10,146 nucleotides of DNA from the IMG/VR virus record IMGVR_UViG_2541047850_000007, positions 1-10,146 of that record, one strand, 5' to 3'. Every line of letters starts with the position of its first letter. Within the stretch, counting starts at the first letter, position 1. Source of the DNA: a virus (taxonomy: Duplodnaviria; Heunggongvirae; Uroviricota; Caudoviricetes). The position numbers were made by a program. Below, piece by piece: positions 6,001 to 9,000 of this stretch.

Positions 6001-9000
6001 CAGGTAAGCCAGTGGACCGGACAGAACGGAGAAACGCGGCAGGGCTGGCAGGTTATCGCAGACAGCGTAATCAGTGCCCGCGCGGCACGTCCAGGCGGGA
6101 ACAGACGCAAAACCACAGGCACACAGGGTAATCAGCCACCAGCGGGAGGCGATGACCCTTACGGTGATGATATTTCGTTCTGAGGGGGTGACGATGGTAC
6201 ATGACCGCATAGCGGAGGAACTGGAGGCGAAAGGCTTTTACCGGAGGGCGGCGGCGCGATGGGGTGAAGTCATGCAGCTGGTGGAGACAGACAAGGAACG
6301 GCATCACATCACGATGCGACGGCTGGAATGTTCAAGGAAGGCACAGAGGGCACCGGAGCCGCCGGATAATTTCGGAGACCTGAAAAAGGCAGTCGATCGC
6401 ACTTATGCCGAAATGGGTATAGATGGTGCTGGTGATGAAATATGGCGCAATTACCAGGACAGCTAATCAAACAGCCGGAGAAATCCGGCTTTTTTTGCAC
6501 CAGTTGAAACGGTATGGCGCATTACCGGGTTTTCGTCACGGTCAGGCATAGTTACTATCTGAAACAAACAGACACAACAGAGGAAAAAAACAATGCCGAT
6601 GAAATTTGATGAGATATTAAAACAGCGTGATAAATACCATGCTGACAACATGGAGACGATGAGCATCAATGATTACCGCGCATTCCTGGAGACGGGCGCA
6701 CTGATTGAAAAGGATCAGCATGGTTTTGTGAGATGTGCTCTATCCGGTGAAATGCTGGCGGTAAATCCTGAACAGATAGATGCATTGATAGAATTTCTGA
6801 AAGAGATCAGAGACTGAGCCAGCACACAGCACACATAGCCGGAGCAATCCGGCTTTTTTGCGCCCAAAAAAAGCCCGATAAGGTCAGAGGGTTCTTATCG
6901 GGCTTTTGCATATGAGGTTTTTGGATGCACTGGCGTTCGTGATCGGGATAATCATTTCATAATTTGCAACATAACTCAATATCATTGCATAAAATGCAAT
7001 TCTGATTATAATCAGGACTGGATAAACATCCAGTTATGATTTTTTTAGTCGAAGAGGAATTTCTTACTATGGCTGAAGAGAAAAAAGGCGGTGTTTCGGT
7101 GTACATAAGCCCCGAAATCGTGGAGGTGCTCAAGCAGCGCCACAAAAAAAACTATGAAGCTGGCGTTGCGGCTGGACTGGATCCGCTGATGACGCCGGAG
7201 CCGTCGATAGGTTCACTTGTACGCTCTTATTTACTTGCGGCGCTTGGGATGCATAAAAATTATGGGGGTGAATAATGGCAGGCAAAGCAACGGCACTTAA
7301 CACTAACCAGCTTTTCATGTACCTGAATCGCGGGGATATTGCGGATTTTAAATTCAGCCCTCTGTTTACCACGCTGTTTTTCCCGAACGTGGCGACATTC
7401 AGCACGCAAAACATCATGCTGGATACCCTGGACATTGAAGAAGTCACCATGTCGGCGTTTTGTTCGCCTATGGTGGGTAGCCAGGTTCAGCGCGATAAAG
7501 GGTACGAAACCAGCACAATCAAACCTGGCTACATGAAGCCAAAGCACGAAATCGATCCAACGAAAACCATCATGCGCATGGCTGGAGAAGATCCGGCACA
7601 GCTTAACGACCCTACCTATCGCCGTATGCGCCTGATTACTGGCAACATGCGCCGCCAGATAAACGCCATTAAGGCACGCGTGGAATGGCTGGCGGTGAAT
7701 GCGGTAACGACCGGAAAAAACATCATTGAGGGCGAAGGCATAGAACGCTATGAAATCGACTGGAAAATACCGGAAAACTGCATCATAGAGCAGGCCAAGG
7801 GTAAAAAATGGTCCGAGCAGGATAAAGACATGCACGACCCAATCTATGACATCGAGCTTTATGCTGATCAGGCTGGTTGCCCCGCAAACGTCATGATTAT
7901 GGGCGCTGAGGTATGGCGCACATTACGCAGCTTTAAAAAATTCCGTGAGCTGTACGATCTTTCCCGTGGTTCAGAATCCGCCGCCGAACTGGCCTGTAAA
8001 AACCTGGGCGAAGTGGTGAGCTTTAAAGGCTATCTTGGTGATCTGGCCCTTATCGTCTATTCCGGCAAATACACTGACAGCGATGGTACCGAAAAATATT
8101 TCCTTGAGCCTGATTTGCTGGTCCTGGGTAACACCAACAATAAAGGGCTGGTGGCCTATGGTGCGATTATGGAACAGGAAGCGGTAAGAACGGGCGCAAC
8201 GCAAAACATGTTTTACCCGAAAAACTGGATTGAAGACGGCGATCCGGCGATTGAGTACGTGCAGACACACAGCGCACCGCAGCCTGTTCCGGCAGATATT
8301 CGCAAATTTGTTACCGTCAAAATTGGTTAACGGTGGATTCTATGAACACTCCATACATTGAGTTATTTGCAGGCAGTCAGCAGGTATCAACGACGCTGGT
8401 ACATTTTGCCGCTGATGCTGGCGTTATTCAGGAATTTACCCCGCTGATGCTGGCGGACAATGGCGAGTTTAAGCCGTGGGATGGTCAGGAATCTGGCAAG
8501 GCTGTTTATCTGACCTCGTACCCCGTTGACACGTCGACGCAGAAATCAGCACAGTGCTATAAGACGGGGATATTCAATATCGCCGCCGTTAACTGGCCTG
8601 AGAGCGTCGACACCGATGCGAAAAAATGCGCCGCCTTTGCGGGTTCTGGCGTATCCGTTCAGCCGCTGGCCCGATAAGCAGGGGGAACGATGGCAACGAA
8701 TGAAAGCATCATGGCGCTACCGCTGGCGAGTAAATTTAAAGCCGAAGCGCGGGCAATGGCTGACAGAGGGTTATCAACCTACGAGGCCGTATATCAACTC
8801 AACAAACTGGAAGAACAGGACAAGCCGCGCGCTGATGCGATTATGGCGCTTCATGAACATAACGACTATCAGCCGCTGTTACGTGCAATGGCAAACGTGC
8901 CATGTATTAGCGTCGATAATGCTCGTGAAATCCTGAACATGACCATAGAGCAGGAGCGCCCAAAGGTTGCACCAGAGCTTACCGCAGCCTTTGAAAACTT

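What the first reader, a model, noticed from the sequence alone, without database searches (positions are those of the whole stretch)
6984..7014. Head-operon promoter with both hexamers buried in palindromes
The -35 TTGCAT lies inside ATTGCAT-aaa-ATGCAAT, and the consensus -10 TATAAT lies inside the perfect 12-bp palindrome TGATTATAATCA. A strong promoter whose core elements coincide with two symmetric sites implies tight repression, by an element or helper regulator, until the appropriate stage. It sits directly behind a double terminator.
Basis: seen in the sequence. Interest (0 to 1): 0.55.

Follow-up and report, generated by a model that had tools for sequence, protein, structure and literature searches.

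The report
Satellite capsid-operon promoter with operator-like palindromes
This is very probably the promoter of the capsid-like gene cluster of a known E. coli phage satellite (EcCICFT073 family); the palindromes over its core are conserved and look like repressor sites, but public RNA data argue against tight silencing.

Summary
ATTGCAT-aaa-ATGCAAT lies at 6984-7000. TGATTATAATCA lies at 7003-7014 and is really a 14-bp palindrome, 7002-7015. They enclose TTGCAT (3 of 6 to the -35 consensus), a 16-bp spacer and a consensus TATAAT.

The window is an EcCICFT073-family phage-inducible chromosomal island. The site sits behind two terminators and 50 nt ahead of a four-gene capsid-like operon.

Each palindrome alone is no rarer than chance. 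However, the 64-bp core 6951-7014 is more conserved across 72 variants (0.95) than its flank (0.85) or third codon positions (0.83). The outer pair of the -10 palindrome switches between A/T and C/G.

CFT073 RNA-seq shows the homologous genes c1498-c1501 behaving as a separate unit. They are transcribed without deliberate helper induction and rise 2- to 5-fold at 37 °C. This supports a local promoter but not tight repression.

No regulator could be identified. AlpA, PerC and an RHH assignment of the first gene all lack support.

A third hairpin plus T-run (7010-7046) overlaps the -10. It should stop read-through RNA but not RNA started at this promoter.

Verdict: an uncharacterised but conventional regulated promoter.

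The parts
6837..6859 (+). Intrinsic terminator t1 (AGCCGGAGCAATCCGGCT plus a T-run) after the 74-aa gene
   Evidence: Listed by the terminator scan. Folds at -12.5 kcal/mol, z -4.0. Mean column conservation 0.81.
6869..6907 (+). Intrinsic terminator t2: 14-bp perfect arms, 11-nt gap between them, then TTTT. An A-run on its 5' side makes it look bidirectional.
   Evidence: I1. Folds at -21.7 kcal/mol, z -4.9. Conservation 0.91.
6951..6969 (.). Upstream copy (O1) of the 19-bp repeat, ATCATTTCATAATTTGCAA. It is a degenerate dyad, ATTtCA-N5-TGCAAc, centred about -57.
   Evidence: Direct repeat D1, 84% identical, 30 bp apart. The pattern occurs only twice in the window, against 0.21 expected. Nearly invariant in 48 variants.
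6984..7000 (.). Dyad O2, ATTGCAT-AAA-ATGCAAT, across the -35 and the upstream spacer, centred about -27. The conserved core is ATTGC-N7-GCAAT.
   Evidence: I10. Outer 5-bp arms are 94-100% kept; the innermost pair is kept in 14 of 48 variants. Variants are tabulated.
6985..6990 (+). -35 hexamer TTGCAT (3 of 6 to consensus). Only TTGC is conserved.
   Evidence: Variants: TTGCAC 26, TTGCAT 11, TTGCGC 6, TTGCGT 3, TTGCTC 2.
7002..7015 (.). 14-bp perfect palindrome CTGATTATAATCAG centred on the -10
   Evidence: The only 14-bp palindrome in the window. Perfect in 32 of 48 variants, as ATG...CAT (20) or CTG...CAG (12). Outer pair A/T 21, C/G 12, other 15; Fisher p = 0.0006, not corrected for relatedness.
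7007..7012 (+). -10 hexamer TATAAT, 16 bp after the -35
   Evidence: The only intergenic plus-strand TATAAT in the window. Kept in 47 of 48 variants. TAAAAT in the divergent subgroup.
7017..7020 (+). Predicted transcription start (inferred, not mapped)
   Evidence: Inferred from the usual 5-8 nt distance downstream of the -10. No start-site data were found.
7010..7046 (+). Hairpin t3 (arms 7010-7023 and 7028-7041, loop AAAC) plus a T7 run. The 5' arm starts inside the -10 and covers the predicted start.
   Evidence: I4. Full hairpin -13.8 to -17.7 kcal/mol, z -3.4 to -5.4. RNA started at 7017-7019 keeps only 5-7 pairs, with the U-run displaced. 96% of cells paired; two pairs show changes on both sides. 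A different hairpin plus T-run sits at the same place in the divergent subgroup.
7052..7071 (+). Shine-Dalgarno AAGAGGAA (7052-7059) and start codon ATG (7069-7071)
   Evidence: Invariant in the alignment. RefSeq annotates the 207-nt gene in homologues. The upstream ATG at 7036 is not conserved.
7069..7275 (+). First gene of the operon: 68-aa protein (phrog_3255; c1498 homologue), function unknown
   Evidence: Narrow family. RHH fold not confirmed.
7275..8330 (+). Lambda gpE-like major capsid protein gene (c1499 homologue)
   Evidence: PF03864, 1.4e-49; phrog_29.
8333..8677 (+). Lambda gpD-like head decoration gene (c1500 homologue)
   Evidence: PF02924, 3.7e-18; phrog_49.
8690..9103 (+). 137-aa protein similar to the C-terminal (scaffold) part of a head maturation protease (c1501 homologue)
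   Evidence: phrog_1999; phrog_53 positions 494-567.
9107..9135 (+). Terminator that ends the operon
   Evidence: In CFT073 the next gene, c1503, does not follow the operon's regulation.

Best explanation
This is the sigma-70 promoter of the four-gene capsid-like operon of an EcCICFT073-family phage-inducible chromosomal island. The operon encodes a 68-aa protein, a gpE-like capsid protein, a gpD-like decoration protein and a scaffold-like protein.

RNA polymerase would use TTGCAT (6985-6990), a 16-bp spacer and TATAAT (7007-7012). It would start near 7017-7020 and make a 50-nt leader ending at the ATG at 7069.

The operon is insulated from the upstream AlpA/replication genes by terminators t1 and t2. 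A third hairpin plus U-run (7010-7046) begins inside the -10. That hairpin is complete only in RNA arriving from upstream. It should therefore stop read-through but not RNA started at this promoter.

Two conserved dyads overlap the promoter core. ATTGC-N7-GCAAT lies over the -35 and spacer, with a degenerate copy 30 bp upstream. (C/A)TGATTATAATCA(G/T) lies over the -10. Most likely these are operators for a dimeric DNA-binding protein that competes with RNA polymerase and damps the promoter.

That protein is not identified. The damping is partial, because the operon is transcribed in cells where no helper was deliberately induced and responds to temperature.

Shown here: the sequence anatomy, the conservation, and the operon boundaries in published RNA-seq. 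Inferred: the start site, the selective action of t3, and protein binding and its sign.
For: Identity of the element:
- int, alpA, primase, ssb, PerC, gpE-, gpD- and TerS-like genes are present.
- The region is 90% identical to CFT073.

Promoter:
- It carries the only intergenic plus-strand TATAAT in the window.
- The -10 is kept in 47 of 48 variants, and as TAAAAT in the divergent subgroup. TTGC is kept at a fixed spacing.
- Terminators lie upstream. A Shine-Dalgarno sequence and ATG lie 50 nt downstream.
- CFT073 RNA-seq at 37 versus 23 °C gives log2 fold changes of 2.24, 2.05, 1.45 and 1.17 for c1498, c1499, c1500 and c1501, all significant.
- The flanking genes do not follow: c1495-c1497 change by 0.24-0.36 and c1503 by 0.33, none significant.

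Selective constraint:
- The core 6951-7014 scores 0.951. The flank scores 0.849 and third codon positions 0.827.
- The core pattern is retained in elements whose capsid protein is only 63% identical.

Dyads:
- The spacer and the -10 flanks are near-invariant.
- The 7002/7015 pair switches A/T to C/G.
- A second copy lies 30 bp upstream, about three helical turns away.

Hairpin t3:
- 96% of cells are paired, with double changes at 7015/7036 and 7016/7035.
- An invariant T-run follows it.
- The divergent subgroup has an analogous hairpin with a different sequence.
Against: - No transcription start has been mapped, and no paper prints this sequence.
- The -35 is only 3 of 6 to consensus, and the spacer is 16 bp rather than 17.
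- Each palindrome alone is at chance frequency. TATAAT preceded by AT is already an 8-bp palindrome.
- The inner arm positions of O2 are asymmetric in 34 of 48 variants.
- The 7002/7015 association is not corrected for shared ancestry, and 15 of 48 variants break it.
- No candidate binding protein is supported. There are no copies of the dyads elsewhere in the window or in phage lambda. The RHH fold of the first gene is unconfirmed.
- The variants are close relatives (94% mean column identity), so conservation has limited resolving power.
- PerC, just upstream, also shows log2 fold change 1.89 (not significant). A start further upstream is therefore not excluded.
Confidence: 0.5

Rival explanations
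1. It is a promoter, but the dyads are incidental. Conservation would come from RNA polymerase contacts, an AT-rich UP-like upstream region, the terminator arm AATCA, and non-specific silencing by H-NS-type nucleoid proteins. Those proteins release AT-rich horizontally acquired promoters at 37 °C. No dedicated repressor exists.
For: - The segment 6901-7050 is 34% GC. It is one of three AT-rich islands in the window; another is the alpA upstream region.
- In CFT073 both alpA (log2 fold change 2.26) and c1498-c1501 (2.24 to 1.17) rise at 37 °C, while the genes between them do not. No motif is shared between the two regions.
- The palindromes are individually at chance frequency.
- The inner dyad positions are not symmetric in most variants.
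- No regulator was found.
Against: - H-NS does not require base-specific conservation, yet 14 of 16 spacer positions and TGATT upstream of the -10 are near-invariant.
- TGATT (7003-7007) is not part of hairpin t3 and is not read by sigma-70.
- The outer palindrome pair co-varies.
- The 19-bp repeat occurs exactly twice, 30 bp apart.
Confidence: 0.25
2. The conserved sequence between -35 and -10 is a loading site for an activator or a Q-like processive antiterminator, supplied by the helper phage or the island. In that case the promoter is constitutive, and the hairpin plus U-run in the leader is the regulated barrier.
For: - The conserved spacer AAAATGCAAT lies where the Q binding element of lambda PR' and the binding element of Pseudomonas AlpA lie.
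- A hairpin plus U-run follows at once.
- A further terminator at 9107-9128 separates the operon from the Rpp-like gene.
Against: - The 5' arm of the hairpin lies upstream of the predicted start. RNA from this promoter keeps only 5-7 pairs, with the U-run 5-8 nt away.
- The only -10-like element in the early transcribed region is TATGAT (7034-7039). Its key second base, 7036, varies among A, G and C.
- There is no similarity to lambda PR' or to any phage record.
- The Pseudomonas antiterminator AlpA is a larger protein, with DNA contacts at residues 128-142. The island's AlpA is about 69 aa. Relatedness of the two was not tested here, so the shared name is not evidence.
- In CFT073 the operon is expressed without deliberate helper induction.
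Confidence: 0.1
3. It is not the operon's promoter. The conserved block would be mainly a third terminator or RNA element for upstream transcripts, or a leftward promoter, since the palindrome also reads TATAAT on the minus strand. The operon would then be transcribed from further upstream.
For: - The hairpin arms 7010-7018 and 7033-7041 are conserved with some covariation. That implies they are transcribed from upstream.
- The minus strand reads TATAAT at 7010-7005.
- t2 looks bidirectional.
- PerC upstream also shows a non-significant rise at 37 °C.
Against: - Two strong terminators plus t3 lie between any upstream promoter and the operon.
- c1495-c1497 do not follow the operon's regulation.
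- The alternative upstream -10, TATCAT (6980-6985), is lost in several lineages (TTTTAT, TGCATT).
- Minus-strand -35 candidates reach only 3 of 6 and there is no leftward gene.
- No Rfam family matches.
Confidence: 0.1

Closest known systems
SaPI operon I promoter (Staphylococcus aureus pathogenicity islands), repressed by LexA (Ubeda et al. 2007, cited in PMC6739421)
   Same: Both are morphogenesis or packaging operons of a phage-inducible island. Each has its own promoter, separate from the island's master regulator, with a dyad operator over the promoter core.
   Different: - There is no LexA box here. The window has CTG-N8-CAG and most variants have ATG-N8-CAT, whereas the E. coli box is CTG-N10-CAG.
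- The host, the proteins and the master regulator differ (AlpA activator versus Stl repressor).
- The binding protein here is unknown.
Phage P22 Pant with the Arc and Mnt operators (own knowledge)
   Same: Both have a promoter with a good -10, a dyad operator overlapping the core, and a very small first gene.
   Different: - The 68-aa protein shows no detectable similarity to Arc or CopG.
- No RHH Pfam hit reaches significance.
- There is no structural match.
- Binding is untested.
Lambda PR' with its Q binding element, and the Pseudomonas alpB promoter with its AlpA binding element (PMC7969949, PMC9371919)
   Same: Both have conserved, non-polymerase sequence between -35 and -10, followed by a terminator-like hairpin ahead of late or lysis-type genes.
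   Different: - There is no conserved -10-like pause element.
- The hairpin starts upstream of the predicted start site.
- There is no sequence similarity to lambda PR'.
P4 Psid and PLL and the P2 late promoters, activated by Ogr or Delta (own knowledge; P4 compared with these islands in PMC6092414)
   Same: Both are satellite morphogenesis operons whose promoter has a poor -35 and a conserved dyad upstream, near -55 to -57.
   Different: - The defining TGT-N12-ACA dyad is absent. There is no TGT in 6940-6990.
- The -10 here is consensus.
- No Ogr or Delta homologue was seen.

Membership tests
Sigma-70 promoter | -10 hexamer close to TATAAT, with A at position 2 and T at position 6 | tested here: met
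   TATAAT at 7007-7012. Kept in 47 of 48 variants. TAAAAT in the divergent subgroup.
Sigma-70 promoter | -35 hexamer close to TTGACA, 16-18 bp upstream | tested here: inconclusive
   TTGCAT matches 3 of 6 with a 16-bp spacer. Only TTGC is conserved. It falls below the scanner's threshold.
Sigma-70 promoter | Transcripts start 5-8 nt downstream of the -10 | not testable with these tools
   No start-site data were found. Indirect support: c1498-c1501 behave as a separate unit in CFT073 RNA-seq.
Repressor operator overlapping a promoter | Dyad or repeat conserved beyond what RNA polymerase needs | tested here: met
   Core 0.951 against flank 0.849 and third codon positions 0.827. Spacer and -10 flanks near-invariant. 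7002/7015 switches A/T to C/G.
Repressor operator overlapping a promoter | A cognate DNA-binding protein that occupies the site and lowers transcription | not testable with these tools
   No candidate is supported.
Intrinsic (Rho-independent) terminator: t1, t2 and t3 | Stable GC-containing hairpin followed directly by a U-run | tested here: met
   t1 -12.5, t2 -21.7 and t3 -13.8 to -17.7 kcal/mol, each followed by a T-run. t3 qualifies only for RNA that begins upstream of 7010.
LexA-controlled island operon (SaPI operon I type) | E. coli SOS box CTGT-N8-ACAG | tested here: not met
   CTGATTATAATCAG is CTG-N8-CAG, 2 bp too short. Most variants read ATG...CAT.
Q-type or Pseudomonas AlpA-type antitermination promoter | -10-like pause element in the initially transcribed region | tested here: not met
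   The only candidate is TATGAT at 7034-7039. Its second base, 7036, is A, G or C among variants.
Q-type or Pseudomonas AlpA-type antitermination promoter | Terminator lying wholly downstream of the start site | tested here: not met
   The 5' arm at 7010-7018 lies upstream of the predicted start. This depends on the inferred start site.
Ogr/Delta-dependent P2/P4 late promoter | TGT-N12-ACA dyad centred near -55 | tested here: not met
   No TGT occurs in 6940-6990.
Ribbon-helix-helix autoregulator (the 68-aa first gene) | RHH fold or family membership | tested here: inconclusive
   - No Pfam hit at E <= 0.01.
- Weak BrnA_antitoxin hit (0.017; 2 of 12 members) and RHH_1 hit (0.15; 1 of 12).
- The AlphaFold2 model (pLDDT 72.6) has an unstructured N-terminus and two helices, with a 12-residue loop between them.
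- Foldseek against the PDB found nothing with E <= 0.001; best E 2.2.
- hhalign against CopG and Arc gave probability of 1.5% or less.
H-NS-silenced horizontally acquired promoter | AT-rich DNA with higher expression at 37 °C than at low temperature | tested here: met
   34% GC. log2 fold change 2.24 to 1.17 at 37 versus 23 °C in CFT073. H-NS binding itself could not be tested.
EcCICFT073-family Gram-negative phage-inducible chromosomal island (context) | int, alpA and pri in one direction, then capsid-like genes, a cos site and rpp, at about 10-14 kb | tested here: met
   Lambda-like cos site at 9166-9200. Published descriptions.

The most novel reading that the evidence does not exclude
The 32-bp dyad at 7010-7041 and the -10 palindrome would together form a 'promoter inside a terminator'.

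The last bases of the -10 and the start site make up the 5' arm of an intrinsic terminator. Polymerases arriving from the AlpA/replication operon would therefore be stopped. Polymerases starting at the embedded promoter would make RNA that lacks the arm and would escape.

The same bases would also serve as an operator. This would fully uncouple the island's capsid-like operon from island induction. It would place the operon under a separate, temperature-responsive control that is active before any helper phage appears. It would also suggest that the capsid-like proteins are a standing function rather than a late one.
Probability: 0.25. Interest if true: 0.55.

Novelty: new member of a known kind. 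Interest (0 to 1): 0.35.

Why it matters
In Gram-negative phage-inducible islands only the AlpA switch has been described. The papers I could read on EcCICFT073 say nothing about how the capsid-like operon is transcribed. They do report that the capsid and decoration genes are dispensable for transfer and interference.

A defined promoter with candidate operators gives a concrete handle on that operon. So does the observation that its CFT073 homologue is on without a helper and is thermoregulated. Together they make it possible to ask when and why a satellite makes its own capsid-like proteins.

The expected outcome is still a conventional repressor- or H-NS-controlled promoter. A specialist would find it useful rather than surprising.

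Tried and rejected
- AlpA as direct regulator. No shared 8-mers, and no consistent 7-mers, link this region and the alpA upstream region in the window or in CFT073. The dyad patterns occur nowhere else in the window. AlpA alleles range from 29 to 93% identity among elements selected for the same 24-nt search pattern.
- The Pseudomonas antiterminator AlpA. It is a larger protein and its relatedness to the island's AlpA was not tested, so I did not use it as evidence.
- PerC as a required regulator. The gene is absent from many elements that carry the same core.
- RHH assignment of the 68-aa protein. Tried Pfam, PHROGs, a PDB sequence search, AlphaFold2 plus Foldseek, an exhaustive HMMER search and hhalign against CopG and Arc. 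Nothing was significant.
- A helper-phage regulator with sites in lambda. Lambda carries no copies of either dyad. No phage record is similar to this region. A 12-mer shared with the lambda 6S region is within chance (my estimate).
- The upstream promoter found by the scanner, TTCATA-18-TATCAT (6956-6985). Its -10 is lost in several lineages.
- An antiterminator pairing of 6994-7008 with 7009-7023. Two positions never pair, it is not the minimum-energy fold, and there is no covariation beyond 7002/7015.
- Boxes for LexA, Ogr/Delta, sigma-54, Fur, FNR, ArgR, IHF and MarA. I compared them by eye and none fits. These comparisons rest on consensus sequences from memory.
- Known RNA families. None match.
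- Genome-collection scans. The protein scan found no relatives. The DNA-pattern scan gave only chance hits in unrelated AT-rich genomes.
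Full report
**What the window is**

The window carries, all on the plus strand:
- a tyrosine integrase (1-1239)
- an AlpA-family gene (about 1649-1858)
- a D5/P4-type primase (3411-5243)
- an 81-aa gene and ssb (5531-6183)
- a PerC-family gene (to 6466)
- a 74-aa gene (6593-6817)
- a 251-nt intergenic region
- a 68-aa gene (7069-7275)
- a lambda gpE-like capsid gene (7275-8330)
- a gpD-like decoration gene (8333-8677)
- a scaffold-like gene (8690-9103)
- a small-terminase-like gene (9311-9853)

The intergenic region is 90% identical to the same place in E. coli CFT073 and 100% identical in many O157:H7 genomes. The element is therefore a member of the EcCICFT073 family of Gram-negative phage-inducible chromosomal islands. 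In that family AlpA is the helper-induced activator, and c1503 (Rpp) redirects packaging (PMC6092414, PMC6739421).

The papers I could search do not describe the promoter of the capsid-like genes. No paper prints this sequence.

**The observation**

It is correct at the stated coordinates.
- ATTGCAT-AAA-ATGCAAT is at 6984-7000. TGATTATAATCA is at 7003-7014 and extends to the 14-bp palindrome CTGATTATAATCAG, 7002-7015.
- TTGCAT and TATAAT lie inside these repeats, 16 bp apart.
- Two good terminators precede the site: 6837-6859 at -12.5 kcal/mol and 6869-6907 at -21.7 kcal/mol.

Some qualifications apply.
- The -35 matches only 3 of 6, so the consensus scan did not list this site.
- The symmetry alone is not remarkable. 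The window has 3 perfect 12-bp palindromes against 2.9 expected, and 1 of 14 bp against 0.8 expected. Both kinds of repeat occur together in 1.3% of shuffles of the local 161-nt AT-rich segment.

- A 19-bp copy of the -35 dyad lies 30 bp upstream, at 6951-6969. The pattern occurs twice in the window against 0.21 expected.
- A 14-bp-arm hairpin plus T7 run lies at 7010-7046. Its 5' arm starts inside the -10.

**Comparative evidence**

I collected the region upstream of the 68-aa gene from eight E. coli genomes and 84 viral-collection contigs. The contigs were found through the protein, not the promoter. This gave 72 unique variants.

The mean majority fraction per column is:

| Segment | Score |
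|---|---|
| Core 6951-7014 | 0.951 |
| Adjacent 6908-6950 | 0.849 |
| Third codon positions of the 68-aa gene | 0.827 |

- TATAAT is kept in 47 of 48 main-group variants.
- The -35 reads TTGCAC (26), TTGCAT (11), TTGCGC (6), TTGCGT (3) or TTGCTC (2).
- A divergent subgroup has capsid proteins only 63-90% identical. It keeps TTGCAA, the 16-bp spacing, TAAAAT, ATTGC-N7-GCAAT and TGATTA-AATCA.

The perfect 7-bp arms are therefore a lineage detail, present in 11 of 48 variants. The conserved dyad is ATTGC-N7-GCAAT.

The spacer (AAAATGCAAT..TGAT) and the bases flanking the -10 are nearly invariant. Sigma-70 does not read these positions base-specifically; that is established knowledge rather than a result obtained here.

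The outermost pair of the -10 palindrome is A/T in 21 variants, C/G in 12 and unpaired in 15. Fisher p is 0.0006, not corrected for relatedness. This is the best single hint that the symmetry itself is under selection.

**Independent expression evidence**

A CFT073 RNA-seq study compared 37 with 23 °C (PMC12890032, Table S1).

| Gene | log2 fold change | Adjusted p |
|---|---|---|
| c1495-c1497 (primase to ssb) | 0.24-0.36 | 0.63-0.91 |
| PerC | 1.89 | 0.16 |
| c1498 (68-aa homologue) | 2.24 | 3e-4 |
| c1499 (capsid) | 2.05 | 3e-17 |
| c1500 | 1.45 | 4e-5 |
| c1501 | 1.17 | 0.002 |
| c1503 (Rpp) | 0.33 | 0.50 |

The four genes thus behave as one unit. Its boundaries coincide with this intergenic region and with the terminator at 9107-9128. 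The response declines along the operon.

The RNA was detected at both temperatures in cultures where no helper was deliberately induced. This supports a promoter here. It argues against silence until a helper arrives.

alpA itself also rises (log2 fold change 2.26), while the genes between it and the operon do not. Both promoters lie in 31-34% GC islands. They share no motif. That pattern fits H-NS-type temperature silencing at least as well as a dedicated factor.

**The third hairpin**

- RNA that begins upstream folds the full stem, at -13.8 to -17.7 kcal/mol with z -3.4 to -5.4. A U-run follows directly.
- RNA begun at the predicted start (7017-7020) keeps only 5-7 pairs, and the U-run is then 5-8 nt away.
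- In 48 variants 96% of cells pair. Two pairs show changes on both sides: 7015/7036 (UA, CG, GC and UG) and 7016/7035.
- The divergent subgroup has a different, weaker hairpin plus T-run at the same position, again starting just after the -10.

I infer that this is a third terminator for read-through RNA and that promoter-initiated RNA escapes it. The inference depends on the unmapped start site.

An alternative antiterminator pairing (6994-7008 with 7009-7023) is not supported.

**Who binds?**

I could not find out.
- The dyad patterns have no other copy in the window.
- Lambda, a known helper of this family, has none.
- No phage record is similar to the region.
- Elements selected for the same 24-nt search pattern carry AlpA alleles 29-93% identical to the window's, different integrases and different replication proteins. 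Many lack PerC.
- The 81-aa gene, ssb and the capsid module are always present.
- So the site travels with the capsid module. This makes a module-encoded or host factor more likely than AlpA or PerC.

The 68-aa first gene is the obvious candidate, but calling it an RHH protein is not justified.
- No Pfam hit reaches E 0.01.
- Only weak BrnA_antitoxin and RHH_1 hints appear, in 2 and 1 of 12 relatives.
- The family is tiny: 18 hits among 1.8 billion representatives.
- A moderate AlphaFold2 model has no significant PDB match.
- Profile comparison with CopG and Arc fails.

**Comparison with known systems**

- It works most like a phage or satellite late-operon promoter with an overlapping operator. 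The nearest analogues are SaPI operon I (repressed by LexA) and P22 Pant with Arc.
- It is not a LexA site, because the spacing is 2 bp too short and most variants lack CTG/CAG.
- It is not an Ogr/Delta promoter, because there is no TGT-N12-ACA.
- It does not meet the Q or Pseudomonas-AlpA antitermination criteria. There is no conserved pause element, and the hairpin starts upstream of the start site.
- No Rfam family matches.

**Verdict**

This is a real, conserved and very probably functional promoter of the island's capsid-like operon. Its operator-like dyads are under constraint. It is uncharacterised, but it is a new member of a well-known kind.

The claim of a strong, tightly repressed promoter is overstated, and the proposed regulators are unsupported.

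Noticed in passing
window 9166-9200: A lambda-like cohesive-end site (GGGCGGCGACCTCGCGGTTTTTCGCTATTTATGA) lies between the operon's terminator and the Rpp/small-terminase-like gene. This is as expected for this family.
   Followed up: partly
window 6473-6490, 6837-6854 and 9107-9128: Nearly the same terminator hairpin, GCCGGAG(A/C)AATCCGGC plus a T-run, occurs three times: after PerC, after the 74-aa gene and after the scaffold-like gene. It may mark module joints.
   Followed up: no
CFT073 homologue (L001); PMC12890032 Table S1: alpA, the island's master activator, is itself up 4.8-fold at 37 versus 23 °C (adjusted p 7e-5). The replication genes downstream of it are unchanged.
   Followed up: partly
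window 1282-1316: An 11-bp inverted repeat, TAAATCGTCGA / TCGACGATTTA, with an inner ATATCG direct repeat, lies in the AT-rich region upstream of alpA. It is a candidate operator or recombination site (read).
   Followed up: no
window 7005-7010, minus strand: Because ATTATAAT is a palindrome, the minus strand also reads TATAAT. Leftward -35 candidates reach only 3 of 6 (TGGATG). A leftward RNA would run into the bidirectional-looking t2.
   Followed up: partly
window 7036-7068: The ORF list and some database entries start the first gene at ATG 7036, giving 79 aa. Base 7036 varies among A, G and C, and there is no Shine-Dalgarno sequence there. The true start is therefore 7069, giving 68 aa.
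   Followed up: yes
window 5251-5550: A third AT-rich island (33-35% GC) lies just after the primase gene. It is probably the replication origin described for this family (PMC10111431).
   Followed up: no
window 6820-6833: A tandem CAGCACA CAGCACA lies directly after the stop codon of the 74-aa gene.
   Followed up: no
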